20,502 nt of DNA from Naegleria gruberi (taxonomy: Eukaryota): the NCBI GenBank assembly GCA_000004985.1, contig GG738953.1. One strand, given 5' to 3'. Positions 5 to 20,201 of the stretch are shown here, in pieces. Within the stretch, counting starts at the first letter, position 1; each line of letters starts with the position of its first letter. The position numbers and the translations under genes are program-made. Below the pieces are notes generated by a model. The model saw only the letters and a list, made by a program, of their open reading frames with translations. It searched no databases and was not told where the DNA came from.

Positions 5-634
5 TTAGCAGGACTTGAAATTATTGAAATAAGTTTTGGTATTCTCTGAAAATTCGGTAAATTGTTCCTTCACTTTTTCATGGGAGTGTTTCATTTCAAA
101 ATTAATATCAAGAATGTTCTTTTCCAATTCTACTGATTTCTTATCACAATTACCACTTCCAGTCATTGCCTCCTTCAATTCAATACCTCTCTTGAAAGCA
201 TGAGCAGATTCTAAATAATCCCCACAATGATACAATGCCACACCATAAACAAAATTCCACACATAGGTCGCATCCAAACTCTCATCCAAATGCAATGCAA
301 GTTTGATATCCTCCAAAGCTCCCTCATATTTCATAGCAGCCAATCTCACCACAGCTCTCTGCACATGCAATCTGGCAACTTGTGGATCTTGTGTAGTGTC
401 GGCCTTGATCTTTCCTTCCAATTTACTCTCAGCAATTAATTGTTTTCGGAATAAAATCTTCTCCTTCAAGTCCTTTGAAATATGACTCACTCCACTCTCA
501 ATCTTTTCATTATTCTTTCTGATGCTAACATCAATGGAATGAACCAAATTGATGACCCGAGAAACAGCTAACATTCCCACTCCTAAAGGAAAGAAGAGAA
601 TGAGAAGAGGTCCTGAAATTGGTGAGCCACACAT
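5..634 (-). CDS. TPR-repeat protein with N-terminal transmembrane anchor (Tom70/Tom20-like architecture); partial, because the 3' end continues past the window start.
   Basis: The ATG at 634-632 sits in an 'aacaacATGt' context. The N-terminal hydrophobic helix LLILFFPLGVGMLAVSRVI is followed by a charged linker. Two TPR-like helix pairs follow (AAMKYEGALEDIKLALHLD and YVWNFVYGVALYHCGDYLESAHAFKRGIEL). The open frame runs to the window edge with no stop. Confidence 0.5.
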   Translation of the reverse strand: MCGSPISGPLLILFFPLGVGMLAVSRVINLVHSIDVSIRKNNEKIESGVSHISKDLKEKILFRKQLIAESKLEGKIKADTTQDPQVARLHVQRAVVRLAAMKYEGALEDIKLALHLDESLDATYVWNFVYGVALYHCGDYLESAHAFKRGIELKEAMTGSGNCDKKSVELEKNILDINFEMKHSHEKVKEQFTEFSENTKTYFNNFKSC

Positions 635-1076: not shown

Positions 1077-1359
1077 TCAAACAATGAAAGAAAATATTAA
1101 TCCCATATTCGAACCTATACTAATACCAAAGAGCAAGAAAAAGGTCATCATTGTTCCAGCAATTTCCTTCTCGTTATTCTCTACACACTGAGGAGCAAAC
1201 ATCATCAATAATGAGCACAAGTAACCATTCGAAATTGAGACAAGGAAAATTGAAAAGAGTGGGAAGGCGTCGTAAACATAATCATTATAACCAAATAGGC
1301 TAGGTCTATAATAAAATAAAAAGAGTGGTACGAAAAATACTCTCAATAACACTGGAATG
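1077..1359 (-). CDS. C-terminal fragment of a polytopic membrane protein; the 5' part is lost in the N run.
   Basis: The open frame emerging from the N run ends at TGA 1077-1079. Its ~90 aa are strongly hydrophobic and look like 2-3 TM helices (IPVLLRVFFVPLFLFYY..., MTFFLLFGISIGSNMGLIFSFIV). No family assignment is possible. Confidence 0.3.
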
Positions 1360-4300
1360 NNNNNNNNNNNNNNNNNNNNNNNNNNNNNNNNNNNNNNNNN
1401 NNNNNNNNNNNNNNNNNNNNNNNNNNNNNNNNNNNNNNNNNNNNNNNNNNNNNNNNNNNNNNNNNNNNNNNNNNNNNNNNNNNNNNNNNNNNNNNNNNNN
1501 NNNNNNNNNNNNNNNNNNNNNNNNNNNNNNNNNNNNNNNNNNNNNNNNNNNNNNNNNNNNNNNNNNNNNNNNNNNNNNNNNNNNNNNNNNNNNNNNNNNN
1601 NNNNNNNNNNNNNNNNNNNNNNNNNNNNNNNNNNNNNNNNNNNNNNNNNNNNNNNNNNNNNNNNNNNNNNNNNNNNNNNNNNNNNNNNNNNNNNNNNNNN
1701 NNNNNNNNNNNNNNNNNNNNNNNNNNNNNNNNNNNNNNNNNNNNNNNNNNNNNNNNNNNNNNNNNNNNNNNNNNNNNNNNNNNNNNNNNNNNNNNNNNNN
1801 NNNNNNNNNNNNNNNNNNNNNNNNNNNNNNNNNNNNNNNNNNNNNNNNNNNNNNNNNNNNNNNNNNNNNNNNNNNNNNNNNNNNNNNNNNNNNNNNNNNN
1901 NNNNNNNNNNNNNNNNNNNNNNNNNNNNNNNNNNNNNNNNNNNNNNNNNNNNNNNNNNNNNNNNNNNNNNNNNNNNNNNNNNNNNNNNNNNNNNNNNNNN
2001 NNNNNNNNNNNNNNNNNNNNNNNNNNNNNNNNNNNNNNNNNNNNNNNNNNNNNNNNNNNNNNNNNNNNNNNNNNNNNNNNNNNNNNNNNNNNNNNNNNNN
2101 NNNNNNNNNNNNNNNNNNNNNNNNNNNNNNNNNNNNNNNNNNNNNNNNNNNNNNNNNNNNNNNNNNNNNNNNNNNNNNNNNNNNNNNNNNNNNNNNNNNN
2201 NNNNNNNNNNNNNNNNNNNNNNNNNNNNNNNNNNNNNNNNNNNNNNNNNNNNNNNNNNNNNNNNNNNNNNNNNNNNNNNNNNNNNNNNNNNNNNNNNNNN
2301 NNNNNNNNNNNNNNNNNNNNNNNNNNNNNNNNNNNNNNNNNNNNNNNNNNNNNNNNNNNNNNNNNNNNNNNNNNNNNNNNNNNNNNNNNNNNNNNNNNNN
2401 NNNNNNNNNNNNNNNNNNNNNNNNNNNNNNNNNNNNNNNNNNNNNNNNNNNNNNNNNNNNNNNNNNNNNNNNNNNNNNNNNNNNNNNNNNNNNNNNNNNN
2501 NNNNNNNNNNNNNNNNNNNNNNNNNNNNNNNNNNNNNNNNNNNNNNNNNNNNNNNNNNNNNNNNNNNNNNNNNNNNNNNNNNNNNNNNNNNNNNNNNNNN
2601 NNNNNNNNNNNNNNNNNNNNNNNNNNNNNNNNNNNNNNNNNNNNNNNNNNNNNNNNNNNNNNNNNNNNNNNNNNNNNNNNNNNNNNNNNNNNNNNNNNNN
2701 NNNNNNNNNNNNNNNNNNNNNNNNNNNNNNNNNNNNNNNNNNNNNNNNNNNNNNNNNNNNNNNNNNNNNNNNNNNNNNNNNNNNNNNNNNNNNNNNNNNN
2801 NNNNNNNNNNNNNNNNNNNNNNNNNNNNNNNNNNNNNNNNNNNNNNNNNNNNNNNNNNNNNNNNNNNNNNNNNNNNNNNNNNNNNNNNNNNNNNNNNNNN
2901 NNNNNNNNNNNNNNNNNNNNNNNNNNNNNNNNNNNNNNNNNNNNNNNNNNNNNNNNNNNNNNNNNNNNNNNNNNNNNNNNNNNNNNNNNNNNNNNNNNNN
3001 NNNNNNNNNNNNNNNNNNNNNNNNNNNNNNNNNNNNNNNNNNNNNNNNNNNNNNNNNNNNNNNNNNNNNNNNNNNNNNNNNNNNNNNNNNNNNNNNNNNN
3101 NNNNNNNNNNNNNNNNNNNNNNNNNNNNNNNNNNNNNNNNNNNNNNNNNNNNNNNNNNNNNNNNNNNNNNNNNNNNNNNNNNNNNNNNNNNNNNNNNNNN
3201 NNNNNNNNNNNNNNNNNNNNNNNNNNNNNNNNNNNNNNNNNNNNNNNNNNNNNNNNNNNNNNNNNNNNNNNNNNNNNNNNNNNNNNNNNNNNNNNNNNNN
3301 NNNNNNNNNNNNNNNNNNNNNNNNNNNNNNNNNNNNNNNNNNNNNNNNNNNNNNNNNNNNNNNNNNNNNNNNNNNNNNNNNNNNNNNNNNNNNNNNNNNN
3401 NNNNNNNNNNNNNNNNNNNNNNNNNNNNNNNNNNNNNNNNNNNNNNNNNNNNNNNNNNNNNNNNNNNNNNNNNNNNNNNNNNNNNNNNNNNNNNNNNNNN
3501 NNNNNNNNNNNNNNNNNNNNNNNNNNNNNNNNNNNNNNNNNNNNNNNNNNNNNNNNNNNNNNNNNNNNNNNNNNNNNNNNNNNNNNNNNNNNNNNNNNNN
3601 NNNNNNNNNNNNNNNNNNNNNNNNNNNNNNNNNNNNNNNNNNNNNNNNNNNNNNNNNNNNNNNNNNNNNNNNNNNNNNNNNNNNNNNNNNNNNNNNNNNN
3701 NNNNNNNNNNNNNNNNNNNNNNNNNNNNNNNNNNNNNNNNNNNNNNNNNNNNNNNNNNNNNNNNNNNNNNNNNNNNNNNNNNNNNNNNNNNNNNNNNNNN
3801 NNNNNNNNNNNNNNNNNNNNNNNNNNNNNNNNNNNNNNNNNNNNNNNNNNNNNNNNNNNNNNNNNNNNNNNNNNNNNNNNNNNNNNNNNNNNNNNNNNNN
3901 NNNNNNNNNNNNNNNNNNNNNNNNNNNNNNNNNNNNNNNNNNNNNNNNNNNNNNNNNNNNNNNNNNNNNNNNNNNNNNNNNNNNNNNNNNNNNNNNNNNN
4001 NNNNNNNNNNNNNNNNNNNNNNNNNNNNNNNNNNNNNNNNNNNNNNNNNNNNNNNNNNNNNNNNNNNNNNNNNNNNNNNNNNNNNNNNNNNNNNNNNNNN
4101 NNNNNNNNNNNNNNNNNNNNNNNNNNNNNNNNNNNNNNNNNNNNNNNNNNNNNNNNNNNNNNNNNNNNNNNNNNNNNNNNNNNNNNNNNNNNNNNNNNNN
4201 NNNNNNNNNNNNNNNNNNNNNNNNNNNNNNNNNNNNNNNNNNNNNNNNNNNNNNNNNNNNNNNNNNNNNNNNNNNNNNNNNNNNNNNNNNNNNNNNNNNN

Positions 4301-5705
4301 NNNNNNNNNNNNNNNNNNNNNNNNNNNNNNNNNNNNNNNNNNNNNNNNNNNNNNNNNNNNNNNNNNNNNNNNNNNNNNNNNNNNNNNNNNNNNNNNNNNN
4401 NNNNNNNNNNNNNNNNNNNNNNNNNNNNNNNNNNNNNNNNNNNNNNNNNNNNNNNNNNNNNNNNNNNNNNNNNNNNNNNNNNNNNNNNNNNNNNNNNNNN
4501 NNNNNNNNNNNNNNNNNNNNNNNNNNNNNNNNNNNNNNNNNNNNNNNNNNNNNNNNNNNNNNNNNNNNNNNNNNNNNNNNNNNNNNNNNNNNNNNNNNNN
4601 NNNNNNNNNNNNNNNNNNNNNNNNNNNNNNNNNNNNNNNNNNNNNNNNNNNNNNNNNNNNNNNNNNNNNNNNNNNNNNNNNNNNNNNNNNNNNNNNNNNN
4701 NNNNNNNNNNNNNNNNNNNNNNNNNNNNNNNNNNNNNNNNNNNNNNNNNNNNNNNNNNNNNNNNNNNNNNNNNNNNNNNNNNNNNNNNNNNNNNNNNNNN
4801 NNNNNNNNNNNNNNNNNNNNNNNNNNNNNNNNNNNNNNNNNNNNNNNNNNNNNNNNNNNNNNNNNNNNNNNNNNNNNNNNNNNNNNNNNNNNNNNNNNNN
4901 NNNNNNNNNNNNNNNNNNNNNNNNNNNNNNNNNNNNNNNNNNNNNNNNNNNNNNNNNNNNNNNNNNNNNNNNNNNNNNNNNNNNNNNNNNNNNNNNNNNN
5001 NNNNNNNNNNNNNNNNNNNNNNNNNNNNNNNNNNNNNNNNNNNNNNNNNNNNNNNNNNNNNNNNNNNNNNNNNNNNNNNNNNNNNNNNNNNNNNNNNNNN
5101 NNNNNNNNNNNNNNNNNNNNNNNNNNNNNNNNNNNNNNNNNNNNNNNNNNNNNNNNNNNNNNNNNNNNNNNNNNNNNNNNNNNNNNNNNNNNNNNNNNNN
5201 NNNNNNNNNNNNNNNNNNNNNNNNNNNNNNNNNNNNNNNNNNNNNNNNNNNNNNNNNNNNNNNNNNNNNNNNNNNNNNNNNNNNNNNNNNNNNNNNNNNN
5301 NNNNNNNNNNNNNNNNNNNNNNNNNNNNNNNNNNNNNNNNNNNNNNNNNNNNNNNNNNNNNNNNNNNNNNNNNNNNNNNNNNNNNNNNNNNNNNNNNNNN
5401 NNNNNNNNNNNNNNNNNNNNNNNNNNNNNNNNNNNNNNNNNNNNNNNNNNNNNNNNNNNNNNNNNNNNNNNNNNNNNNNNNNNNNNNNNNNNNNNNNNNN
5501 NNNNNNNNNNNNNNNNNNNNNNNNNNNNNNNNNNNNNNNNNNNNNNNNNNNNNNNNNNNNNNNNNNNNNNNNNNNNNNNNNNNNNNNNNNNNNNNNNNNN
5601 NNNNNNNNNNNNNNNNNNNNNNNNNNNNNNNNNNNNNNNNNNNNNNNNNNNNNNNNNNNNNNNNNNNNNNNNNNNNNNNNNNNNNNNNNNNNNNNNNNNN
5701 NNNNN
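1360..5705. other. Run of 4346 N (assembly gap or hard-masked repeat).
   Basis: A literal n-run is present. The odd length suggests an estimated-size scaffold gap or masked repeat. Confidence 0.99.
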
Positions 5706-6273
5706 TAATAATCGACATGTTGATATCATGAAGCATGATTTGATACTATTCTCGTTCAATGGAACGGGAAAGACGTGGCTTACTTGTTTGTATTGTTTGC
5801 AACAAATATTGGCGGGAAAAGTTAGGAGAGTCATTGTAGTTTGTCCAATATTGGAATATTGTCATCAATATGAAGAAAACTTAAAGACAATGATTGGATC
5901 TACTACTGATTCACAAGATGTTTTCTCATTCAAAATATTGAATAGTGCAACAGAAACGAAGGAATCAACGAAACATGTTAATATTATCATTAGTAGTTTA
6001 TCGAGATTGTTGGGATTTATTAGAAGAGGAATTATTGATACAACAGATGTGGATTTAATTATAGTGGATGATTTCGAATATTCAAAATCGTTGAATTCAT
6101 TGCAAGATTTCAAATATTTCTTTTCAAGATTTAACAACGCAAGAGCGATTGTTTCAACTGAAGGTGATAAGAAGATAATTCCACCAGTATTGAATAATCC
6201 TGCAATACTTTGTAGTATTCCTTTCAGTAATGAAAGTTATTACAATTACATCAATTTTGTTGGAAATCATTGA
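5706..6273 (+). CDS. Helicase-like P-loop ATPase domain fragment (SF1 UvrD/PIF1-like RecA domain 1A: motifs I, Ia, II, III); the 5' end is in the gap and the frame ends at TGA 6271-6273.
   Basis: The frame is open from the gap edge. Walker A is FNGTGKTWL. A motif Ia-like VIVVCPILEYCHQ follows. A motif II-like LIIVDDFEYS (compare UvrD VDEFQD, PIF1 LIIDEISM) lies ~93 aa after Walker A. A motif III-like IVSTEGDKKIIPPV (compare GDxxQLPPV) lies ~30 aa later. The order and spacing are canonical. The DE->DD and SAT/LVGD->STEG substitutions suggest a degenerate or inactive ATPase. Confidence 0.5.
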
Positions 6274-6322
6274 GCATATCAACATCACTAATCTTTTGAT
6301 ATCTCAAAAATTGGATTTGAAG

Positions 6323-6386
6323 AACCATTGATTTGTACCTAAAGCGAGTATTGGAGTATTGGCATACAGTTATTAGTTTACCAAAT
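6323..6386 (+). CDS. Putative upstream exon of the F-box-like gene (the 5' boundary is uncertain and there is no ATG, so a further upstream exon is required).
   Basis: In frame after TGA 6318-6320 the sequence reads ..IDLYLKRVLEYWHTVISLPN. It ends in a complete codon at 6386, followed directly by the donor GTAAGG (6387-6392). Joining it to the 6529 exon gives ISLPN|VVSLSLVCKEWNRI, which is F-box consensus ..LP..L..L.VCK.W..I. Alternative acceptor AGs lie at 6321/6322 or 6343/6344. Confidence 0.3.
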
Positions 6387-6528
6387 GTAAGGGCCTTGCC
6401 TAGTGTTATGAGTTATTATCGTGCACATGGAGTGAGTCCATCCCCAAACGTGTTATTAAATGAAACTAAACAAATTATAATTTAATAATTGAAAATGCAT
6501 AAACTAATCATTTCTGGATTATTCACAG

Positions 6529-7188
6529 GTTGTAAGTCTCTCCCTTGTATGCAAGGAGTGGAATCGGATAGCAAGTTGCAATGATTTGTGGGAATTTTAC
6601 TTTCATTTACTTTCGAATAATCGGAAGGGAAAAACAAAAGTTTCTTCCGATACTATTTCACAAGATGAAAATTTCTGGAAACACAAAATGAGAGATAATT
6701 TCACTCAATATGCTTGCAGAGTTTCTAACAAGATTACACTTTATCAAAATTATTTACAAATTTGTGAATTGAAAGGAAATTTCCCTAACAAGTTTTCATC
6801 ACAATTGACCAGAATGATTCTAGCAAGAATGATGATCAATTCCATTCAATATACAGATGATTTAAACCTTAAACCATTCCAACAATATTTGGGGTTTAAA
6901 GAGCACTTTCATGCAACTATACATTTCAAGTTGACTGTGAAAATTAGTGGAATTGATGAGCCACTAATTGTAAGAACCAACTCGTATATTTACAAAGGAG
7001 ATATACCCTATTTTAGTTATCATTATTTAGATAATTATTACTTGTACTTTGCTAAGGAAAGTGATGACAAATTAAGGAATGAAATATTTATGAATGAGCC
7101 TTGTCCAGTTTACCGAATAAACGTGATTTTCCGCTTTTCGATTTCTTTTCGGTTGCGTTTTGTTAATAAAATTTTTGTTTTTATTTGA
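6529..7188 (+). CDS. F-box-like protein, main exon (the second half of the F-box is followed by a ~200-aa domain of unknown function).
   Basis: The acceptor is ttctggattattcacag|GTT at 6528/6529, with a branch-like 'aaactaat' ~20 nt upstream. The exon opens with VVSLSLVCKEWNRIASCNDLW, the diagnostic C-terminal half of an F-box. The open frame continues 220 codons to TGA 7186-7188. The last ~30 codons (EPCPVYRINVIFRFSISFRLRFVNKIFVFI) are low-complexity and overlap the 3' end of the transposase gene on the other strand, so the true stop or 3' exon is uncertain. Confidence 0.5.
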   Translation, partial: VVSLSLVCKEWNRIASCNDLWEFYFHLLSNNRKGKTKVSSDTISQDENFWKHKMRDNFTQYACRVSNKITLYQNYLQICELKGNFPNKFSSQLTRMILARMMINSIQYTDDLNLKPFQQYLGFKEHFHATIHFKLTVKISGIDEPLIVRTNSYIYKGDIPYFSYHYLDNYYLYFAKESDDKLRNEIFMNEPCPVYRINVIFRFSISFRLRFVNKIFVFI

Positions 7189-8086
7189 AAAGAACATTTG
7201 GTGGTTGTTTGCGGACAGGTTGAAAGCTGAGTGACAAGTTTGTCAACTTAGAGCAAATACGAACAATTCGTTGGTGCTTTTTAAGGTCACCTCTATAGGT
7301 ATGATGTACTATTTTAAACTTTTTAAATCTTCCGATTACTTGTTCAACAACAACTCTTCCTTGTCCTAATGTCTTGTTGTAGGATGCATCAAACGAAGAG
7401 AGCGATTGTCCTTTTTTCGCTTTCACTGGCGAAATTACGTGTTTTGCTTTTTTGTACGCTTTATCACCTAACACTCTTTCGTCTGGACCAATGTTCGGTT
7501 CTTTTTCTTGCAACCATTCATCCCACATCTTTTTGTCATGCATCGCACCAGGATACGCATTTGAAACATCAAGAATTTTCGCTGTTGTCAAACTCACTAA
7601 CATTTGATACTTCAATGCATGCATTCGCTTTTTATACGAATAATACAATTTCTGTTTGGCCCATAGTTTTTGCTTTTCGATTCTGCTTAATCCGGATTTC
7701 TTTCTACCAGACGGATTTTCAATCCTACATTCTGTACCATCAACAACAACTTTAATCCTTCTGAACATACCAGTAGCTGTGTTATTAATATCTTTTCTAT
7801 CATCAATATTTAGTGGTGGTAGATTGTTATCTAATACTTTTTGTCCTTTTTCAATGTTTGTGAAATATGATGAACGTGAAACATTCCAGTAAACAGGATG
7901 AACAAGTGAATTCGGATAAAGTGTTAAATATTCCATCAATATTAAAAACCATTTTTCACTCAATTTGTACTTGATGAATTTGTTGTAAATATATTGAAGT
8001 TGAGTAGAAGAAAAGCCAAATGATGCTCTAAAAGCACGTTCGTTTCCTTTTGGAAAGATGTTTTTGTATGTTGAAAAGAGAGGCAT
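7181..8086 (-). CDS. PIF/Harbinger-superfamily DDE transposase (DDE_Tnp_4-like), an intact 301-aa ORF.
   Basis: An N-terminal HTH-like segment (RAFRASFGFSSTQLQYI) is followed by the three acidic-residue motifs in canonical order and spacing. These are VVDGTECRIENP (D1), AYPGAMHDKKMW (D2, compare G.PGS.HD) and LGDKAYKKAK (D3, compare LGDSGY). The C-terminal motif YNKTLGQGRVVVEQVIGRFKKFKIV (compare R..VE..FG.LK.RF..L) follows. There are no internal stops, the start is ATG at 8086-8084 and the stop is TAA at 7183-7181. Confidence 0.85.
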   Translation of the reverse strand: MPLFSTYKNIFPKGNERAFRASFGFSSTQLQYIYNKFIKYKLSEKWFLILMEYLTLYPNSLVHPVYWNVSRSSYFTNIEKGQKVLDNNLPPLNIDDRKDINNTATGMFRRIKVVVDGTECRIENPSGRKKSGLSRIEKQKLWAKQKLYYSYKKRMHALKYQMLVSLTTAKILDVSNAYPGAMHDKKMWDEWLQEKEPNIGPDERVLGDKAYKKAKHVISPVKAKKGQSLSSFDASYNKTLGQGRVVVEQVIGRFKKFKIVHHTYRGDLKKHQRIVRICSKLTNLSLSFQPVRKQPPNVLFK

Positions 8087-8148
8087 TTTATTCGAATCCT
8101 AAATATTTAAATTTAAAAAATATTCGAATAAAAAGTTTCGAAAAAAAA
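8087..8148. promoter_or_regulatory. 62-bp AT-rich divergent intergenic region with three TTCGAA-core palindromes (a putative bidirectional promoter or protein-binding site).
   Basis: The region lies between the ATG at 8086 (- strand) and the ATG at 8149 (+ strand). ATTCGAAT occurs at 8090-8097, TATTCGAATA at 8121-8130 and TTTCGAAA at 8136-8143. Confidence 0.35.
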
Positions 8149-9249
8149 ATGCCTCCAAAGAAAGCCACTTCAGGAAAAGAAAAACCAAAAGAGAAACCGG
8201 TAGAGAAAAAAGCGGTTGAAGCGAAGCCTCGGTTTTTAGCAGCAGACAAGGTAAAATTAAAGGATTTTTACTTAAAAAACAAGAAAGCAGGTGTAAAGCA
8301 AGAGAGTGTGTTTACTTCATTCGGCCAACTTTATGGTTATTCTAATTCACAAGTGAGAAGAGCATATTATTCGATTTTCGGTAAACAAAAAACAAAAAAC
8401 GAAACCGAAACCGAACCGGAAGATGACGATGTTTCCGAAAATGTTGATGATGATATGATAGAAAGACAAGAATTTACTGATAGAATGGACAGTTATCTTG
8501 CTGAATCTGAGCAAAAAACTGAGAAGAAGAGAAAGAGACAACTTGAGAAGGAGCCAACTTATGATGATGATGATGATGAATGTGATTACGAACAATCAGA
8601 TGAAGATTACGAATATTCGGATGAAGATATTTTACCGGCAACTCCGTCGAAAGTAACAAAAGTAGTGAGCATTAATGACAAATCAACAAGTTTATTCCGT
8701 CCTTTTAGATTCGAATCAGAAACTCATCGCTTCATCATTTATAGATTTCCCACATGGACTGATTTTAAATTTTCACATGTGGAGATGTCAAAAGAAAAGA
8801 TGATAGTTATTCATGTGAAGATTAATGCTAAACTTTCCGAAAGTTGTGTAGTAGAATCTTTCGCTCCATTTGCGAAAAATTTAAAAGCGAACACTGACAG
8901 AAAGGATGAACAGTTCACCATCAAAGAACCGGTTCCGAAAGATGTTGATGTTAAAACTGTAAAGTGTGGTCCTTTGAATTTGAAAGGCGTTTACGATTTG
9001 GATGACCGTGTATTCGCAGTGCTATTAGAAAAGAAATTGCAAACATTCGCACCAACTTTTGATGCTAATGAATTGTCAAATTTCATTGCGAAGGCTTCTG
9101 TTACAAGTAGCTCTTCTGACACACAACTTGTCAACACTCAAACATCACAAGCGCTTACCAGCAACTCCACTGCCGCCACAACAGAAGATGCAACCGGCAA
9201 CAAAGAAATCGCAAACGCAACTCAAAACACAAGAGAAGAGTCTGAATAA
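8149..9249 (+). CDS. Lysine-rich N-terminal / acidic-central protein (366 aa); a possible Harbinger ORF2 partner or a host chromatin-type protein.
   Basis: ATG 8149 sits in an 'aaaaaaaaATGc' context. The ORF is uninterrupted to TAA 9247-9249. The N-terminal region is rich in K/E/P (MPPKKATSGKEKPKEKPVEKK). A helix-rich aromatic segment (FLAADKVKLKDFYLKNK...FGQLYGYSNSQVRRAYYSIF) is followed by an acidic tract DDDDDECDYEQSDEDYEYSDED, then a beta-rich segment and an S/T-rich tail. The longer ORF start at 8050 was rejected because it overlaps the transposase start on the opposite strand. Confidence 0.55.
   Translation: MPPKKATSGKEKPKEKPVEKKAVEAKPRFLAADKVKLKDFYLKNKKAGVKQESVFTSFGQLYGYSNSQVRRAYYSIFGKQKTKNETETEPEDDDVSENVDDDMIERQEFTDRMDSYLAESEQKTEKKRKRQLEKEPTYDDDDDECDYEQSDEDYEYSDEDILPATPSKVTKVVSINDKSTSLFRPFRFESETHRFIIYRFPTWTDFKFSHVEMSKEKMIVIHVKINAKLSESCVVESFAPFAKNLKANTDRKDEQFTIKEPVPKDVDVKTVKCGPLNLKGVYDLDDRVFAVLLEKKLQTFAPTFDANELSNFIAKASVTSSSSDTQLVNTQTSQALTSNSTAATTEDATGNKEIANATQNTREESE
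8563..8580 (+). repeat. (GAT)5-GAA microsatellite inside the CDS, encoding DDDDDE.
   Basis: The literal sequence gatgatgatgatgatgaa lies in frame with the 8149 ORF. Confidence 0.6.
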
Positions 9250-9326
9250 ACAATTTCACTTCTGCTTTCATTCGAATTTCCGAATTTTCCTGTTTTTCCG
9301 TTAAGTCGGACACAGCTCAATAATGG

Positions 9327-12250
9327 NNNNNNNNNNNNNNNNNNNNNNNNNNNNNNNNNNNNNNNNNNNNNNNNNNNNNNNNNNNNNNNNNNNNNNNNNN
9401 NNNNNNNNNNNNNNNNNNNNNNNNNNNNNNNNNNNNNNNNNNNNNNNNNNNNNNNNNNNNNNNNNNNNNNNNNNNNNNNNNNNNNNNNNNNNNNNNNNNN
9501 NNNNNNNNNNNNNNNNNNNNNNNNNNNNNNNNNNNNNNNNNNNNNNNNNNNNNNNNNNNNNNNNNNNNNNNNNNNNNNNNNNNNNNNNNNNNNNNNNNNN
9601 NNNNNNNNNNNNNNNNNNNNNNNNNNNNNNNNNNNNNNNNNNNNNNNNNNNNNNNNNNNNNNNNNNNNNNNNNNNNNNNNNNNNNNNNNNNNNNNNNNNN
9701 NNNNNNNNNNNNNNNNNNNNNNNNNNNNNNNNNNNNNNNNNNNNNNNNNNNNNNNNNNNNNNNNNNNNNNNNNNNNNNNNNNNNNNNNNNNNNNNNNNNN
9801 NNNNNNNNNNNNNNNNNNNNNNNNNNNNNNNNNNNNNNNNNNNNNNNNNNNNNNNNNNNNNNNNNNNNNNNNNNNNNNNNNNNNNNNNNNNNNNNNNNNN
9901 NNNNNNNNNNNNNNNNNNNNNNNNNNNNNNNNNNNNNNNNNNNNNNNNNNNNNNNNNNNNNNNNNNNNNNNNNNNNNNNNNNNNNNNNNNNNNNNNNNNN
10001 NNNNNNNNNNNNNNNNNNNNNNNNNNNNNNNNNNNNNNNNNNNNNNNNNNNNNNNNNNNNNNNNNNNNNNNNNNNNNNNNNNNNNNNNNNNNNNNNNNNN
10101 NNNNNNNNNNNNNNNNNNNNNNNNNNNNNNNNNNNNNNNNNNNNNNNNNNNNNNNNNNNNNNNNNNNNNNNNNNNNNNNNNNNNNNNNNNNNNNNNNNNN
10201 NNNNNNNNNNNNNNNNNNNNNNNNNNNNNNNNNNNNNNNNNNNNNNNNNNNNNNNNNNNNNNNNNNNNNNNNNNNNNNNNNNNNNNNNNNNNNNNNNNNN
10301 NNNNNNNNNNNNNNNNNNNNNNNNNNNNNNNNNNNNNNNNNNNNNNNNNNNNNNNNNNNNNNNNNNNNNNNNNNNNNNNNNNNNNNNNNNNNNNNNNNNN
10401 NNNNNNNNNNNNNNNNNNNNNNNNNNNNNNNNNNNNNNNNNNNNNNNNNNNNNNNNNNNNNNNNNNNNNNNNNNNNNNNNNNNNNNNNNNNNNNNNNNNN
10501 NNNNNNNNNNNNNNNNNNNNNNNNNNNNNNNNNNNNNNNNNNNNNNNNNNNNNNNNNNNNNNNNNNNNNNNNNNNNNNNNNNNNNNNNNNNNNNNNNNNN
10601 NNNNNNNNNNNNNNNNNNNNNNNNNNNNNNNNNNNNNNNNNNNNNNNNNNNNNNNNNNNNNNNNNNNNNNNNNNNNNNNNNNNNNNNNNNNNNNNNNNNN
10701 NNNNNNNNNNNNNNNNNNNNNNNNNNNNNNNNNNNNNNNNNNNNNNNNNNNNNNNNNNNNNNNNNNNNNNNNNNNNNNNNNNNNNNNNNNNNNNNNNNNN
10801 NNNNNNNNNNNNNNNNNNNNNNNNNNNNNNNNNNNNNNNNNNNNNNNNNNNNNNNNNNNNNNNNNNNNNNNNNNNNNNNNNNNNNNNNNNNNNNNNNNNN
10901 NNNNNNNNNNNNNNNNNNNNNNNNNNNNNNNNNNNNNNNNNNNNNNNNNNNNNNNNNNNNNNNNNNNNNNNNNNNNNNNNNNNNNNNNNNNNNNNNNNNN
11001 NNNNNNNNNNNNNNNNNNNNNNNNNNNNNNNNNNNNNNNNNNNNNNNNNNNNNNNNNNNNNNNNNNNNNNNNNNNNNNNNNNNNNNNNNNNNNNNNNNNN
11101 NNNNNNNNNNNNNNNNNNNNNNNNNNNNNNNNNNNNNNNNNNNNNNNNNNNNNNNNNNNNNNNNNNNNNNNNNNNNNNNNNNNNNNNNNNNNNNNNNNNN
11201 NNNNNNNNNNNNNNNNNNNNNNNNNNNNNNNNNNNNNNNNNNNNNNNNNNNNNNNNNNNNNNNNNNNNNNNNNNNNNNNNNNNNNNNNNNNNNNNNNNNN
11301 NNNNNNNNNNNNNNNNNNNNNNNNNNNNNNNNNNNNNNNNNNNNNNNNNNNNNNNNNNNNNNNNNNNNNNNNNNNNNNNNNNNNNNNNNNNNNNNNNNNN
11401 NNNNNNNNNNNNNNNNNNNNNNNNNNNNNNNNNNNNNNNNNNNNNNNNNNNNNNNNNNNNNNNNNNNNNNNNNNNNNNNNNNNNNNNNNNNNNNNNNNNN
11501 NNNNNNNNNNNNNNNNNNNNNNNNNNNNNNNNNNNNNNNNNNNNNNNNNNNNNNNNNNNNNNNNNNNNNNNNNNNNNNNNNNNNNNNNNNNNNNNNNNNN
11601 NNNNNNNNNNNNNNNNNNNNNNNNNNNNNNNNNNNNNNNNNNNNNNNNNNNNNNNNNNNNNNNNNNNNNNNNNNNNNNNNNNNNNNNNNNNNNNNNNNNN
11701 NNNNNNNNNNNNNNNNNNNNNNNNNNNNNNNNNNNNNNNNNNNNNNNNNNNNNNNNNNNNNNNNNNNNNNNNNNNNNNNNNNNNNNNNNNNNNNNNNNNN
11801 NNNNNNNNNNNNNNNNNNNNNNNNNNNNNNNNNNNNNNNNNNNNNNNNNNNNNNNNNNNNNNNNNNNNNNNNNNNNNNNNNNNNNNNNNNNNNNNNNNNN
11901 NNNNNNNNNNNNNNNNNNNNNNNNNNNNNNNNNNNNNNNNNNNNNNNNNNNNNNNNNNNNNNNNNNNNNNNNNNNNNNNNNNNNNNNNNNNNNNNNNNNN
12001 NNNNNNNNNNNNNNNNNNNNNNNNNNNNNNNNNNNNNNNNNNNNNNNNNNNNNNNNNNNNNNNNNNNNNNNNNNNNNNNNNNNNNNNNNNNNNNNNNNNN
12101 NNNNNNNNNNNNNNNNNNNNNNNNNNNNNNNNNNNNNNNNNNNNNNNNNNNNNNNNNNNNNNNNNNNNNNNNNNNNNNNNNNNNNNNNNNNNNNNNNNNN
12201 NNNNNNNNNNNNNNNNNNNNNNNNNNNNNNNNNNNNNNNNNNNNNNNNNN
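9327..12250. other. Run of 2924 N (gap or masked) interrupting the EGF-repeat gene.
   Basis: A literal n-run is present. Confidence 0.99.
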
Positions 12251-13782
12251 CGGCTAGAATACCATTACACTTTGGGATTGAACAAAATCTTCCTCCCCAA
12301 TGAGTTTCATCATTACATTTGCAAATGTCATCTGCCAAACAATTTCCTCTTCCATTACAAACATTTTCCATGGTCGACAAAGTGCCATTACACTTCAAGA
12401 TTTGACAGTCATTACCACCAAATGCATACGTATCGAAACATTGACATTGATTTGGGGAAATGCATTGACCTCTGGAATTGCAAACTGTTGGATCTGATGC
12501 TGATGTCAAATTACATTTTGGAACGTCACATTTCAATCCATTCCATTGAGATTGATCTCTACAGACACATGTATCATGAGATACACAATCACCTCTTCCT
12601 GAACAAACACTGCTTGTTTGATTTGCTATTATTCCAAAACATACTGGAATTTCACATTTCTCACCAACATATCTTGACGTGTTGAAGCATTGACAGGTAT
12701 TAAGTGCAATACAAGAGCCATTTCCTGAACAAACTGTTTCATCATTTGCTAAAGTACCATTACATTTTGGAATTTCACAATTTTCACCTCCATAATTAGA
12801 ATTACATTTACAATAATTGTAACGTTCACAAATTCCATTACCATTACATGCAGTAGATGAGTTTGAAAACTTTCCAAAACATGTTGTTACTGTACACTCA
12901 GGTCCATAATAATTTTCATTACACATGCATGTATTCACATCAACACATGTTCCATTTCCATGACATGCTAAAAAAGGATATTTGCTTTCAGATGATTTCC
13001 CATAACATTCAGGAAGACATGTTCTTCCATCACCACTCAACACATAACCAACACCATCACAATATGGATAAACCTTCTTAATCAATCCAGCAACATCATC
13101 AGCAATATAAATCTCATTCTTATTCTCCCTCACAAAAACATTAAAAGGAGAATCCAAGTAACAATTCACTGGATCAGAATTGTCTGGACATCCACTCGAG
13201 GAATTTGTACTTCCAGCAATGATTTCCACTTGTCTATTTTGAATCTTTTTAACCTGCTTCAATCCAGGATCAGCAACAAACAATTCATCATGTGCTGTGT
13301 AATATAATCCCATTGGATTATTCCATGGAGTGGCTGTGAAATTTGCATCATTGAATGGTGGATACTCTGGATAAGGATTCCAATCTGGAGTGCTAGCACT
13401 GAATATGGTGTATGTTTCAGGAAGAACTAATCTCATAATTTTCCCATAATAAATATAGTAAATGTCACCTGTTAGTGGTGATGCAACTATTCCACCATCG
13501 GTAGGTGATAAACCACAATTAGTGAACCAGTTAAATGAATTATAATTTGCCAAACTATAGTAACCCACGCAATTGTTACCAACATCCATGAAAAGCAACC
13601 AATTGTGAAATTTATCGATGGAAAGCATCTTTCCAAAGTACATGACATTAGGTAGAGTTGTAATAGTTGTTTTTCCATAGTTGAGTGCTCTTATTTTCAT
13701 ACTAAAATATTCAGATAGGTAGACTTTCTCTTGTGCTTCATCAACAGCAATAAAAGGTTGATCTATAAATCTTTCGTTTCGA
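12251..13782 (-). CDS. Secreted NHL-repeat beta-propeller plus tandem tenascin-type EGF repeat protein, exon 2; the 3' end continues into the N run.
   Basis: A 1.5-kb frame is open on the minus strand. NHL-like blades are present (NNPMGLYYTAHDELFVADPGLKQVKKI; LDSPFNVFVRENKNEIYIADDVAGLIKKV; RFIDQPFIAVDEAQEKVYLSEY). At least 6 tandem ~39-aa repeats follow, each C-x(10-12)-C-x-G-x-G-x-C-x5-C-x-C-x(7-8)-G-x-x-C-x-x-P-K (for example CNGTLANDETVCSGNGSCIALNTCQCFNTSRYVGEKCEIPV). There are many N-x-S/T sites. The acceptor is ttctaaactag|T at 13783/13782, and a proximal alternative is tattttag|T at 13702/13701. Both are in phase with exon 1. Confidence 0.75.
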
Positions 13783-13895
13783 CTAGTTTAGAATAGTTTA
13801 CTTACTGCCAAGAGGAGCCATAAAAACGCTCAAAGTTCCATTAAAAACAGTTCTAATTAATTTAAATAATTAGTAAACTGTGAAAAATCACTTAC

Positions 13896-14095
13896 AATAT
13901 CCTATTTTTGTAATAGTTGTTTTCATTGTTGTGTTCTGCAATGAACATGTCTCCATTGGCCAACACATGTACTGCTCGTGGCATGTTCAACGAGCTGACA
14001 GCTGTCGTGATTTTGAACTTGACATTTAATGCACTGCACATGCCCAACAAAAGCACGAGGACAAATGCAAATAAAAACGTAAGGTTATTATGCAT
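13896..14095 (-). CDS. Exon 1 of the NHL/EGF protein gene, carrying the signal peptide and the first NHL-like segment.
   Basis: ATG 14095-14093 sits in a 'caaaaaaaATGc' context. The signal peptide is MHNNLTFLFAFVLVLLLGMCSA|LNV. The segment VHVLANGDMFIAEHNNENNYYKNRI is NHL-like. The exon ends in phase 2 (..ATA TT) and is followed by a consensus donor GTAAGT at minus-strand 13895-13890. Joining to 13782 gives ..KNRIF RNERFIDQPFIAVD.. in frame. Confidence 0.6.
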
Positions 14096-17400: not shown

Positions 17401-18365
17401 NNNNNNNNNNNNNNNNNNNNNNNNNNNNNNNNNNNNNNNNNNNNNNNNNNNNNNNNNNNNNNNNNNNNNNNNNNNNNNNNNNNNNNNNNNNNNNNNNNNN
17501 NNNNNNNNNNNNNNNNNNNNNNNNNNNNNNNNNNNNNNNNNNNNNNNNNNNNNNNNNNNNNNNNNNNNNNNNNNNNNNNNNNNNNNNNNNNNNNNNNNNN
17601 NNNNNNNNNNNNNNNNNNNNNNNNNNNNNNNNNNNNNNNNNNNNNNNNNNNNNNNNNNNNNNNNNNNNNNNNNNNNNNNNNNNNNNNNNNNNNNNNNNNN
17701 NNNNNNNNNNNNNNNNNNNNNNNNNNNNNNNNNNNNNNNNNNNNNNNNNNNNNNNNNNNNNNNNNNNNNNNNNNNNNNNNNNNNNNNNNNNNNNNNNNNN
17801 NNNNNNNNNNNNNNNNNNNNNNNNNNNNNNNNNNNNNNNNNNNNNNNNNNNNNNNNNNNNNNNNNNNNNNNNNNNNNNNNNNNNNNNNNNNNNNNNNNNN
17901 NNNNNNNNNNNNNNNNNNNNNNNNNNNNNNNNNNNNNNNNNNNNNNNNNNNNNNNNNNNNNNNNNNNNNNNNNNNNNNNNNNNNNNNNNNNNNNNNNNNN
18001 NNNNNNNNNNNNNNNNNNNNNNNNNNNNNNNNNNNNNNNNNNNNNNNNNNNNNNNNNNNNNNNNNNNNNNNNNNNNNNNNNNNNNNNNNNNNNNNNNNNN
18101 NNNNNNNNNNNNNNNNNNNNNNNNNNNNNNNNNNNNNNNNNNNNNNNNNNNNNNNNNNNNNNNNNNNNNNNNNNNNNNNNNNNNNNNNNNNNNNNNNNNN
18201 NNNNNNNNNNNNNNNNNNNNNNNNNNNNNNNNNNNNNNNNNNNNNNNNNNNNNNNNNNNNNNNNNNNNNNNNNNNNNNNNNNNNNNNNNNNNNNNNNNNN
18301 NNNNNNNNNNNNNNNNNNNNNNNNNNNNNNNNNNNNNNNNNNNNNNNNNNNNNNNNNNNNNNNNN
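14481..18365. other. Run of 3885 N (gap or masked).
   Basis: A literal n-run is present. Confidence 0.99.
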
Positions 18366-18555: not shown

Positions 18556-19050
18556 ATGTCAAACTTTGTTGATCTGCCATCCGAGTTGCAAATTGAAATA
18601 TTTTCCATTCTCTCTGTTAAACATTTGAGAAATATTCTTTCAATTAACAAATCAATTCATGAGCAATTGATTCAATCAGAAACATTTTGGAGAACCTTGA
18701 TCAAGAATTATTCGAAAGTGATCGGAGAAAGTGCTTATGGAGTTGAACAAGCATCACAAGAATTATTCGAAATTGAAAATGTCAAGAAACAGTTAATTGA
18801 AATGATAGAAATAAAAAAGAGAAAAACTAAACAATTCCAACAGATGTCTATGGAATTAGAATACATGTTAAGAGAATTAGAAATGGTTCAGAGAGAAATG
18901 AATGCACGAAATGAAAGTACTTTGCTATTGGGAGGAAACATCAGTGATCAATTCAAAAATCAAATTGAAAGTTTGAAGCAAAAAGGTGAAAGTGTGAAAA
19001 AGGAAACGGAAGAAATTGCAGAAAAGTTAAAGAAAACGATTATTGATTAA
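18556..19050 (+). CDS. F-box domain protein (164 aa) with a C-terminal coiled-coil-like region.
   Basis: ATG 18556 sits in an 'aaaaaaATGt' context. The N-terminal F-box is LPSELQIEIFSILSVKHLRNILSINKSIHEQL (LP.E..IEIFS.L....L.....K). The remainder is K/E-rich with heptad-like hydrophobic spacing. The stop is TAA at 19048-19050. Confidence 0.7.
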   Translation: MSNFVDLPSELQIEIFSILSVKHLRNILSINKSIHEQLIQSETFWRTLIKNYSKVIGESAYGVEQASQELFEIENVKKQLIEMIEIKKRKTKQFQQMSMELEYMLRELEMVQREMNARNESTLLLGGNISDQFKNQIESLKQKGESVKKETEEIAEKLKKTIID

Positions 19051-19664: not shown

Positions 19665-20201
19665 TTACAATTTGTTGGATAACCAATCCAATCCCTCGAA
19701 TAAACCAGAACCATTCAAAGCACTACATGGCTGTATGTACCAATCTTGCTTGATTGAATTTAATTGTAGATTCTTTGCAATATCTGTGACATTAGCAGCT
19801 CTCGGTAAATCTTGCTTATTAGCCCACACCAATAACTTGGCATTTGACAATGATGGATCCTCCATCACTTTATGCAATGTTTCTGACACTTCTTCAAATC
19901 TCTCTCTATCATTCGAATCTACAATGAAAATCACAGCATCTGTTCCATTGTAATAGTGTCTCCACAAGGTTCTAATCATATCCTGACCACCAATGTCAAA
20001 AACTCTGAATTGAACTCTCTTGTATTGAATCACTTCGGCATTGAAACCAATGGTAGGTATAGTACTGACATTCTCATCTAATTGTATCTTGTACAGAGTT
20101 GAGGTTTTACCAGCTGCATCCAAACCTAGGAAGAGAATTTTGGCTTCCTTTTGTTCGAATAAGGACAAGCCCTTGATCATGTTAGAAAGTAATTGACCCA
20201 T
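19665..20201 (-). CDS. ARF: ADP-ribosylation factor (ARF-family small GTPase, ARF1-like), an intronless 178-aa ORF.
   Basis: ATG 20201 sits in a 'caaaaATGG' context. The protein starts with Gly2 (N-myristoylation). G1 is GLDAAGKT, G3 is DIGGQ and G4 is [26 protein letters not shown] and the C-terminal [13 protein letters not shown] are near-identical to ARF1 signatures. The stop is TAA at 19664-19662. Confidence 0.9.

What the first reader, a model, noticed from the sequence alone, without database searches (positions are those of the whole stretch)
5706..6415. Degenerate SF1 helicase core fragment directly upstream of an F-box exon on the same strand
Motifs I, Ia, II and III appear in correct order and spacing. 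The catalytic signatures are substituted, though (DDFE for DExx, STEGD for the motif III GD box). The ORF stops about 100 aa after motif III, with no domain 2A. About 50 bp downstream on the same strand an exon encoding the first half of an F-box begins. The F-box helicase family (FBH1/FBXO18) is a UvrD-type SF1 helicase with an F-box, but there the F-box is N-terminal. So this is one of three things: two adjacent genes, a mis-ordered or novel fusion, or a helicase pseudogene (Helitron-derived?) bordering the 4.3-kb N run. Any of these would be informative.
Basis: partly seen in the sequence, partly recalled or inferred. Interest (0 to 1): 0.5.

Follow-up and report, generated by a model that had tools for sequence, protein, structure and literature searches.

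The report
Truncated DEAD-box-like gene beside F-box gene
The "helicase" is a real but crippled, half-length relative of DEAD-box RNA helicases (not the UvrD/SF1 type) in the amoeba Naegleria gruberi. It is a separate gene from the F-box gene downstream, so there is no new helicase–F-box fusion and the finding is ordinary.

Summary
The window is a whole 20,502-bp Naegleria gruberi scaffold, and its N runs are most simply scaffold gaps. ORF 5707-6273(+) is a real helicase-type P-loop domain, but it is SF2 DEAD-box RecA1 (Pfam DEAD 3.3e-11; the fold matches eIF4A, DDX41 and Sub2), not SF1/UvrD/Helitron. Motif I (GTGKT) and the Q glutamine are kept. PTRELA, GG, TPGR, DEAD (now DDFE) and SAT (now STE) are degenerate. 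The ORF stops 36 aa after motif III, not about 100 aa, and has no RecA2. It is already annotated as a 127-aa "predicted protein" (NAEGRDRAFT_76293), with a near-identical copy on a 417-kb scaffold. Among 1.84 billion representative proteins it has no close relative except that copy.

The proposed F-box "first-half exon" (6345-6386) is not supported. In a 99%-identical metagenome contig (L001) and a 53%-identical relative (L002), the F-box gene has its own ATG and a complete F-box in one piece, with no intron. In the window, 46 nt at that spot are replaced by a 19-nt inverted copy, which removes the ATG and 13 codons. A Harbinger-type transposon also interrupts the 3' end.

Verdict: two adjacent genes, a catalytically dead DEAD-box remnant and a decaying F-box gene. 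There is no FBH1-like fusion. Low interest.

The parts
5707..6273 (+). Readable 3' part (188 codons plus stop) of a DEAD-box-like RecA1-only ORF. The annotated model NAEGRDRAFT_76293 (P0031, 127 aa) is 5890-6273. The 5' part lies in the gap; the relative L001 shows at least 95 more codons.
   Evidence: Pfam DEAD 3.3e-11. The best PDB sequence hits are archaeal DeaD proteins, then CshA, Dhh1 and eIF4A, apart from a likely chance cytidylyltransferase hit ranked third. AF2 model pLDDT 79, and the Foldseek top 50 are all DEAD-box RecA1 domains. P0031 is 100% identical. The L001 ORF 3-854 is open for 283 codons.
5752..5775 (+). Motif I / Walker A, SFNGTGKT. G, G, K and T are intact.
   Evidence: Invariant columns G19, G21 and K22, with T23 nearly invariant, in alignments with DEAD-box helicases.
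5842..5868 (+). Motif Ia, degenerate: PTRELAxQ becomes PILEYCHQ. P, E and Q are kept.
5992..6009 (+). Motif Ib, degenerate: TPGRL becomes SLSRL. Only R is kept. The upstream GG motif is lost (FKI, 5929-5937).
6067..6078 (+). Motif II / Walker B: DEAD becomes DDFE. The first Asp is kept; the catalytic Glu is replaced by Asp.
   Evidence: D121 is invariant, while position 122 is E in at least 90% of the helicases.
6154..6162 (+). Motif III: SAT becomes STE. The stop follows 36 codons later (6271-6273), at about the RecA1/RecA2 boundary.
6274..6489 (.). Intergenic spacer. There is no F-box signal and no relic of helicase domain 2.
   Evidence: Identical to L001 except for 2 SNPs; in L001 it lies upstream of the F-box ATG. 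Pfam finds nothing relevant in its translations. The RecA2 HMM's best score over 6230-6494 is -1.5 bits, and 36% of shuffles do as well.
6490..6508 (.). A 19-nt segment that is the reverse complement of L001 1099-1117 and replaces 46 nt of L001 (1072-1117). This inversion-deletion removes the F-box gene's ATG and its first 13 codons.
   Evidence: Alignment and exact inverted match. L001 reads MELNDHLLVYAFSFLDYSQVV... and L002 reads MSHDILCHAFSFLDYSH....
6508..7188 (+). F-box gene remnant. The F-box residue stretch SFLDYSQVVSLSLVCKEWNRIASCNDLWEFYF is at about 6508-6600. The frame opens after TAA 6505-6507. The first in-frame ATG is at 6688, past the F-box. The 3' end runs into a transposon from 7096.
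   Evidence: F-box-like 32.5 bits covering profile positions 14-43 of 47. ORF and ATG positions. Orthologues P0002 and P0003.
7096..9326 (.). PIF/Harbinger-type transposon insertion, absent from L001. It has a DDE_Tnp_4 transposase at 7181-8086(-) and an acidic ORF at 8149-9249(+). Its far end is lost in the next gap.
   Evidence: The alignment breaks at 7095/7096. Pfam DDE_Tnp_4 4.1e-29. The terminal 20-mer occurs only once in the window.

Best explanation
These are two separate, same-strand neighbouring genes on a small Naegleria gruberi scaffold.

Gene 1 (readable 5707-6273; annotated 5890-6273) is a lineage-specific orphan derived from the N-terminal RecA1 half of a DEAD-box (SF2) RNA helicase. 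It keeps the adenine-reading Q glutamine (seen in L001), the P-loop GTGKT and the Mg-binding Asp of Walker B, so it could still bind a nucleotide. It has lost the catalytic Glu (DEAD to DDFE), SAT, GG, and most of PTRELA and TPGR. It also lacks the whole RecA2 domain with motifs IV-VI. DEAD-box ATP hydrolysis and RNA clamping need the cleft between RecA1 and RecA2, including the motif VI arginines (established knowledge). It therefore cannot work as a helicase or an RNA-dependent ATPase. It is either a decaying truncated paralogue or a non-catalytic protein. I put these at roughly even odds, leaning slightly towards a remnant with no helicase-related function.

Gene 2 is an ordinary small F-box protein gene with its own ATG and no intron in its relatives. 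On this scaffold its start and the first third of the F-box were removed by a 46-to-19-nt inversion-deletion, and its 3' end is interrupted by a Harbinger-type transposon. Here it is probably a pseudogene.

Shown: domain identity, motif states, the stop position, absence of RecA2 within 1.5 kb downstream, colinearity of the F-box in relatives, and the rearrangement. Inferred: loss of catalysis, and the functional status of either gene.
For: - Organism: the closest protein is an NCBI N. gruberi predicted protein, 99% identical.
- Sequence family: Pfam DEAD 43.6 bits, E 3.3e-11, with no SF1 family hit. The best phmmer matches in the PDB are archaeal DeaD proteins, then CshA, Dhh1 and eIF4A, apart from a likely chance cytidylyltransferase hit ranked third.
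- Fold: the Foldseek top 50 against the PDB are all DEAD-box RecA1 domains.
- Motif states come from alignments with 7 and 24 DEAD-box proteins.
- The stop is 36 aa after STE.
- The same stop appears in the window model P0031 (100% identical), in P0001 on the 417-kb scaffold, and in the independently assembled contig L001.
- L001 shows no RecA2 in the 1.5 kb downstream, and the spacer holds no RecA2 relic.
- A full HMMER scan of 1.84e9 representatives found only the copy on the 417-kb scaffold (P0001). The next hits are generic, mostly bacterial, DEAD-box proteins at 20-31% identity, E >= 1e-6.
- A 283-codon open frame in this AT-rich DNA has a chance probability of about 1.7e-10. The frame was therefore kept while the motifs diverged.
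- F-box gene: L001 1079-1255 scores F-box-like 4.5e-10 and F-box 1.9e-8 in one continuous ORF starting with ATG, and P0003 behaves the same way.
- The window lacks this start because of the inversion-deletion. The first in-frame ATG is at 6688.
- The spliced-exon model scores lower than the colinear reading.
Against: - The 5' end of gene 1 is hidden in the gap, and L001 is cut at its own end, so the full architecture is unknown.
- No transcript data were available, so read-through or splicing on this haplotype cannot be excluded directly.
- Three weak, phase-compatible GT sites exist (6151, 6187, 6259) that could join to the AG at 6343-6344.
- The haplotypes and strains differ by only about 0.5% (3 substitutions in 564 nt: 1 non-synonymous, 2 synonymous). 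Selection on gene 1 therefore cannot be measured.
- The AF2 model was built with a DEAD-box alignment, so the fold match is partly circular.
- The rearrangement at 6490-6508 could be an assembly or cloning artefact of the old Sanger scaffold.
Confidence: 0.8

Rival explanations
1. The helicase-like ORF and the F-box are exons of one gene: a novel helicase-N / F-box-C fusion, an inverted FBH1-like architecture. It would be spliced from a donor near 6187 or 6259 to an acceptor at 6345, and then from 6386 to 6529.
For: The two lie on the same strand and close together. The exon at 6345-6386 has no ATG of its own. GTAAGG at 6387 and CACAG at 6524-6528 look like splice sites. Three phase-0 GT sites exist in the ORF's 3' end.
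Against: In L001 the supposed intron contains the true ATG and the first half of the F-box, colinear with the rest, and L002 agrees. The 6345-6386 peptide contributes nothing to the F-box profile and lowers the score (25.1 against 32.5 bits). The candidate donors (GTTTCA, GTATTG, GTTGGA) are weak, and none fits the 6323 acceptor. The annotated models of both copies end at the ORF's stop. The helicase part is not UvrD-like.
Confidence: 0.04
2. It is an SF1 helicase fragment (UvrD, Pif1 or Helitron Rep-Hel derived), that is, a transposon-related pseudogene.
For: A transposon does lie nearby (7096 onwards), but it is of the Harbinger type.
Against: Pfam gives DEAD, ResIII and PhoH only. All PDB sequence matches to helicases and all top 50 structure matches are SF2 DEAD-box RecA1 domains. 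The Q-motif context and the PxxExxxQ / xxxR / D-x-x-x / S-x-x pattern align column for column with DEAD-box proteins.
Confidence: 0.02
3. It is a complete, working DEAD-box helicase gene whose RecA2 half is simply not seen, because of misassembly, a long intron or the scaffold gaps.
For: The scaffold is gap-rich and looks like an alternative haplotype. The ORF ends right at the RecA1/RecA2 boundary, where an intron could sit.
Against: An independent metagenome assembly (L001) has the same stop and the same downstream sequence, with no Helicase_C in the next 1.5 kb. Even with a RecA2, DDFE, STE, and the loss of GG, TPGR and PTRELA argue against normal activity. No RecA2 relic is detectable.
Confidence: 0.07
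4. The RecA1-only protein is a maintained, functional pseudo-helicase: a nucleotide- or partner-binding module that no longer unwinds RNA. It is not a dying gene.
For: An open frame of at least 283 codons was kept despite deep divergence from every DEAD-box protein (chance about 1.7e-10). The P-loop and Q glutamine are retained. The predicted fold is confident over the core (pLDDT about 90 over residues 20-60 and 90-150). Two genomic copies or alleles and a third strain all keep it intact.
Against: No orthologue turned up in any other organism among 1.84e9 representative proteins. The neighbouring gene is visibly decaying, and the region carries a transposon. The three copies are too similar to show constraint.
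Confidence: 0.35

Closest known systems
DEAD-box RNA helicases (SF2; eIF4A, Dhh1/DDX6, Sub2/UAP56, bacterial CshA/DeaD), RecA1 'DEAD' domain PF00270
   Same: Same fold and same motif order: Q, I, Ia, Ib, II, III. Walker A GTGKT, the Q glutamine, the Ia P/E/Q residues, the Ib Arg, the first Asp of motif II and the Ser of motif III all sit in the aligned columns.
   Different: There is no RecA2 domain and so no motifs IV-VI. DEAD is DDFE, SAT is STE, GG is lost, and PTRELA and TPGR are degenerate. Identity to any helicase is only 20-31%. No orthologues were found outside N. gruberi.
FBH1 / FBXO18 (F-box DNA helicase 1)
   Same: Only the co-occurrence of 'a helicase-like domain' and 'an F-box' in one neighbourhood.
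   Different: FBH1 is a single polypeptide with an N-terminal F-box and a UvrD-type SF1 core (my own knowledge of the family). Here the helicase-like part is SF2 DEAD-box RecA1, the F-box lies downstream, and the two belong to separate genes.
Small F-box-only proteins (Pfam F-box PF00646 / F-box-like PF12937)
   Same: The downstream gene in L001 and L002 has a canonical N-terminal F-box of about 40 aa followed by an uncharacterised C-terminal region.
   Different: In the window the first third of the box and the ATG are missing, and a transposon truncates the 3' end. L001 carries a frameshift and a TAG.

Membership tests
DEAD-box helicase (SF2) | RecA1 domain matching Pfam DEAD above the gathering score | tested here: met
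   43.6 bits against a cutoff of 26, E 3.3e-11. Fold matches to eIF4A, DDX41 and Sub2 RecA1.
DEAD-box helicase (SF2) | Q motif and motif I (AxTGxGKT) | tested here: met
   In L001, SSIQ has the invariant Q87. GTGKT is present in both the window and L001. The Q motif itself lies in the window's gap.
DEAD-box helicase (SF2) | Motif II D-E-A-D with the catalytic Glu | tested here: not met
   DDFE at 6067-6078. Glu is replaced by Asp, Ala by Phe and Asp by Glu.
DEAD-box helicase (SF2) | Motif III S-A-T, plus motifs Ia PTRELA, GG and Ib TPGR | tested here: not met
   STE, PILEYC, FKI and SLSRL.
DEAD-box helicase (SF2) | RecA2 / Helicase_C domain with motifs IV, V and VI | tested here: not met
   The ORF stops 36 aa after motif III. 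There is no Helicase_C in the protein, in the 6230-6494 frames, or in the 1.5 kb downstream in L001.
SF1 helicases (UvrD/Rep, Pif1, Helitron Rep-Hel) | Match to the UvrD-helicase, AAA_19, PIF1 or Helitron helicase profiles or folds | tested here: not met
   No such Pfam hit at E <= 1. None appears among the PDB sequence hits or the top 50 Foldseek hits.
FBH1 / F-box helicase | F-box and helicase core in one polypeptide | tested here: not met
   Separate ORFs. The F-box gene has its own ATG in L001 and L002. The annotated helicase-like models end at the stop. This was not tested with transcripts.
F-box proteins (downstream gene) | Complete F-box motif of about 40-47 aa matching PF00646 or PF12937 | tested here: inconclusive
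   The window holds only profile positions 14-43, at 32.5 bits (above the cutoff of 24.3), with no ATG upstream of it. The F-box is complete in L001 (38.5-39.6 bits) and in P0003.
F-box proteins (downstream gene) | Binding to Skp1 / assembly into an SCF ligase | not testable with these tools

The most novel reading that the evidence does not exclude
Naegleria gruberi maintains a stand-alone protein derived from DEAD-box RecA1 alone. It would have an intact P-loop and Q motif but no catalytic Glu and no RecA2, and would act as a non-catalytic nucleotide- or partner-binding module, for example a decoy for partners of eIF4A-type helicases. That would make it a lineage-specific 'half-helicase' pseudoenzyme rather than a pseudogene.
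Probability: 0.3. Interest if true: 0.35.

Novelty: new member of a known kind. Interest (0 to 1): 0.12.

Why it matters
It matters little beyond annotation. The work corrects the family assignment from SF1 to SF2 DEAD-box RecA1. It removes a tempting but false reading as a reversed FBH1. It shows that the public 127-aa model NAEGRDRAFT_76293 is the tail of a longer ORF of at least 283 codons. It also documents small-scale haplotype differences in N. gruberi: an inversion-deletion that kills an F-box gene's start, a transposon insertion polymorphism, and independent lesions in another strain. If the half-helicase proved to be expressed and maintained, it would be a modest example of a pseudoenzyme born from a helicase half.

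Tried and rejected
1. Recovering the hidden upstream sequence or the allelic 417-kb scaffold. The look-up of encoding contigs failed for P0001, the transposase, the acidic ORF, the TPR ORF and the Arf ORF. N. gruberi gene positions appear not to be on record.
2. The third homologous-protein search, with the 283-aa L001 protein, returned nothing, not even P0001. I treat that as a tool quirk.
4. Two metagenome scans, one for the helicase-like protein and one for the F-box alignment A3, found no relatives. Synteny in more distant relatives could not be tested.
5. The 400 nt upstream of the F-box gene in L002 hold no helicase-like ORF, but only about 30 codons of a neighbouring gene are visible, so this is uninformative.
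6. Hypothesis: the spacer 6230-6494 holds frame-shifted relics of RecA2. tblastn with 27 DEAD-box proteins gave only noise-level hits. A RecA2 HMM scored at most -1.5 bits, and 36% of shuffles did as well. Rejected.
7. Hypothesis: the frame-2 peptide MKVITITSILLEIIEHINITN (6230-6331) is the true F-box first half. It raises the Pfam score to 34.4 bits when artificially joined. However, it has no GT donor and hits a stop at 6329-6331, and L001 and L002 show a different, colinear first half. Rejected as chance.
8. A search for the far end of the transposon through its terminal 20-mer found nothing in the readable sequence.
9. Two literature searches, for Naegleria DEAD-box/F-box and for Naegleria haplotype scaffolds, returned nothing relevant.

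Full report
**What the window is**

The best database match to the ORF is a 127-aa 'predicted protein [Naegleria gruberi]'. Its cluster has two members:
- EFC43803.1 / NAEGRDRAFT_68225, on a 417,575-bp scaffold.
- EFC36037.1 / NAEGRDRAFT_76293 (P0031), on a contig of exactly 20,502 bp, which is the length of this window.

P0031 is 100% identical to window 5890-6270. The window is therefore a whole small scaffold of the N. gruberi reference assembly. It is most likely an alternative haplotype or a recent duplicate of part of the large scaffold. The three N runs (1360-5705, 9327-12250, 14481-18365) are most simply scaffold gaps. The DNA is eukaryotic and 30-37% G+C.

Neighbouring features:
- a nucleoside-transporter C-terminus at 1080-1358(-)
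- a TPR ORF at 5-634(-)
- a DDE_Tnp_4 transposase at 7181-8086(-)
- teneurin-like EGF repeats at 12252-13700(-)
- a second F-box-like ORF at 18556-19050(+)
- an Arf GTPase at 19665-20201(-)

**Checking the observation**

The frame-1 translation of 5707-6273 is open from the gap edge to a TGA at 6271-6273. It matches Pfam DEAD (PF00270) at 43.6 bits (gathering score 26; E 3.3e-11). Weaker matches are the related P-loop families ResIII and PhoH. No UvrD, PIF1, AAA_19 or Helitron family appears at E <= 1.

Other evidence agrees:
- phmmer against the PDB gives archaeal DeaD proteins as the best two hits, then CshA, Dhh1/DDX6, eIF4A and Sub2. A likely chance cytidylyltransferase hit ranks third.
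- An AlphaFold2 model (pLDDT 79, pTM 0.76) was searched with Foldseek against the PDB. The top 50 hits are all DEAD-box RecA1 domains.
- That model used a DEAD-box alignment, so this last point is only corroboration.

So the helicase-like motifs are real and far above chance. The superfamily, however, is SF2 DEAD-box, not SF1.

**Motif states**

These come from alignments with 7 and with 24 DEAD-box proteins and from coordinates computed.

| Motif | Consensus | Here | Window coordinates |
|---|---|---|---|
| Q | PTPIQ | SSIQ, invariant Gln kept | in the gap; seen only in L001 |
| I | AxTGxGKT | SFNGTGKT, intact | 5752-5775 |
| Ia | PTRELAxQ | PILEYCHQ | 5842-5868 |
| GG | GG | lost (FKI) | 5929-5937 |
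| Ib | TPGRL | SLSRL | 5992-6009 |
| II | DEAD | DDFE, catalytic Glu replaced by Asp | 6067-6078 |
| III | SAT | STE | 6154-6162 |

That is about where RecA1 ends in DEAD-box proteins. There is no RecA2/Helicase_C domain.

**A near-identical relative fills part of the gap**

A search with the downstream F-box ORF found two ENA metagenome proteins, and their contigs could be read. L001 (2,340 bp) is about 99.5% identical to window 5706-7095 and extends 286 nt into the window's gap.

In L001 the helicase-like ORF is open for 283 codons, right up to the contig edge, and ends at the same stop. An open frame of that length in DNA of this composition has a chance probability of about 1.7e-10. The reading frame was therefore preserved while the catalytic motifs drifted.

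The public 127-aa models are thus only the tail of a longer ORF. Nothing in the 1.5 kb downstream of the stop in L001 resembles Helicase_C.

**The F-box**

In L001 the sequence just upstream of 'VVSLSLVCKEW' reads ATG GAG CTA AAC ..., giving MELNDHLLVYAFSFLDYSQVVSLSLVCKEWNRIASCNDLWEFYF. This is a complete F-box in one continuous ORF, scoring F-box-like 4.5e-10 and F-box 1.9e-8. L002 comes from a more distant relative (53-54% protein identity). It begins the same way, MSHDILCHAFSFLDYSHTTNLSLVCKEW. The gene is therefore intronless here, has its own start codon, and lies 225 nt downstream of the helicase-like stop.

In the window, 46 nt of L001 (1072-1117) are replaced by a 19-nt segment (6490-6508). 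That segment is the exact reverse complement of L001 1099-1117. The replaced stretch is bounded by the inverted microhomology TGAAAA/TTTTCA. The change removes the ATG and 13 codons. The F-box frame now opens only after a TAA at 6505-6507, and its first in-frame ATG (6688) lies beyond the F-box.

Pfam scoring of the alternative readings shows this:

| Reading | F-box-like score | Note |
|---|---|---|
| Spliced model with exon 6345-6386 | 25.1 bits | match starts only at residue 19, in the second exon |
| Colinear window peptide SFLDYSQVV... | 32.5 bits | profile positions 14-43 of 47 |
| Intact L001 form | 38.5 bits | profile positions 7-42 |

**Fusion or not**

Both annotated N. gruberi models stop at ...FVGNH. 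Phase-compatible GT sites in the ORF's 3' end are GTTTCA (6151), GTATTG (6187) and GTTGGA (6259). All are weak. They fit only the acceptor giving an exon start at 6345, and none fits the 6323 acceptor. The supposed target exon is intergenic in the relative with the intact gene. I therefore rate a helicase-F-box fusion at about 4%.

The FBH1 analogy fails on both defining features: there is no UvrD-type core and no single polypeptide.

**Is anything left of RecA2?**

I tested whether the spacer holds frame-shifted relics of domain 2.
- tblastn with 27 DEAD-box proteins gave only noise.
- A RecA2 HMM scored at best -1.5 bits on the three forward frames of 6230-6494, and 36% of shuffled controls did as well.

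No relic is detectable.

**How isolated is the helicase-like protein?**

A full HMMER scan of 1.84 billion representative proteins returned only P0001, the copy on the 417-kb scaffold, as a close hit (E 3.4e-75). It returned 27 generic DEAD-box proteins at 20-31% identity with E >= 1e-6. The best of those that carry names are bacterial, from a Planctomycetota MAG and from Breznakia CshA/DeaD. No orthologue from any other eukaryote stands out. Metagenome contig scans found nothing further. The gene is an orphan within the N. gruberi group.

**Mechanistic reading**

Shown:
- a RecA1-type fold
- an intact P-loop and Q glutamine
- the Walker B Asp
- loss of the catalytic Glu, SAT, GG and most RNA-contact motifs
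- absence of RecA2

Inferred from established DEAD-box biochemistry: ATP hydrolysis and RNA clamping need closure of RecA1 on RecA2, with the motif VI arginines and motif V. The protein therefore cannot be a helicase or an RNA-dependent ATPase. At most it binds an adenine nucleotide or a partner protein.

Whether it is still functional is open.
- For function: the long open frame maintained through deep divergence, and three intact copies.
- Against function: no orthologues, truncation exactly at the domain boundary, and a neighbourhood that is visibly decaying.
- The three copies differ by only 3 substitutions in 564 nt (1 non-synonymous, 2 synonymous), similar to the spacer (2 in 212). Selection cannot be measured.

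The decay in the neighbourhood consists of:
- the window's F-box gene has lost its start and is hit by a Harbinger-type transposon from 7096
- L001's copy has a 2-nt deletion
- L001's copy has a TAG where the window has TCG

**Verdict**

The helicase motifs and the downstream F-box are real. The SF1 assignment, the '100 aa' tail and the F-box exon are wrong.

The thing itself is a degenerate, truncated DEAD-box RecA1-like orphan ORF, already annotated as a hypothetical protein, next to a broken F-box gene. This is an ordinary outcome of gene duplication and decay on a repeat-rich alternative-haplotype scaffold. Interest is low.

Noticed in passing
window 7096-9326: A PIF/Harbinger-type transposon insertion that is absent from the 99%-identical contig L001. 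It has the terminal sequence GAGCCTTGTCCAGTTTACCG, a DDE_Tnp_4 transposase ORF at 7181-8086(-) and a divergently oriented acidic 366-aa ORF at 8149-9249(+) with no Pfam match. Its far end is lost in the next gap. It interrupts the 3' part of the F-box ORF.
   Followed up: partly
window 6490-6508 (L001 1072-1117): A 46-nt stretch is replaced by a 19-nt inverted copy of its own 3' end. It is bounded by the inverted microhomology TGAAAA/TTTTCA. This looks like a template-switch inversion-deletion, or else a Sanger assembly artefact.
   Followed up: yes
L001 1255 and 1585-1587 (window 6649-6650 and 6981-6983): The relative's F-box gene carries its own lesions: a 2-nt deletion causing a frameshift after the F-box, and a TAG where the window has TCG. 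There is also a 3-nt indel (window 6829-6831). These are independent defects in two haplotypes or strains. L002's protein ends at about the position of the TAG, so the ancestral stop position is unclear.
   Followed up: partly
window 6230-6331, frame 2: A short ORF, MKVITITSILLEIIEHINITNLLISQKLDLKNH, overlaps the end of the helicase-like ORF. Its middle mimics the first half of an F-box: 34.4 bits when artificially joined to the real second half. It has no splice donor, so I judged it chance.
   Followed up: yes
window 18556-19050 (+): A second small ORF with an N-terminal F-box-like motif (MSNFVDLPSELQIEIFSIL...). It scores F-box-like 22.1 bits, just below the cutoff, and is followed by a coiled-coil-like acidic tail.
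   Followed up: no
window 12252-13700 (-) and 13892-14095 (-): A large ORF with teneurin-type EGF repeats (EGF_2 1.2e-21) runs into the gap at 12250. A possible signal-peptide exon lies upstream of it.
   Followed up: no
window 1080-1358 (-), 5-634 (-), 19665-20201 (-): Three flanking genes: the C-terminus of an equilibrative nucleoside transporter running into the first gap (2e-19), a TPR-containing ORF, and an Arf-family GTPase (2.2e-63).
   Followed up: no
window 5890-6273 against 5707-6273 and L001 3-854: The public gene models (127 aa, starting at MIGSTTD) cover only the last 45% of an ORF that is open for at least 283 codons. The models omit motif I and the Q motif.
   Followed up: yes
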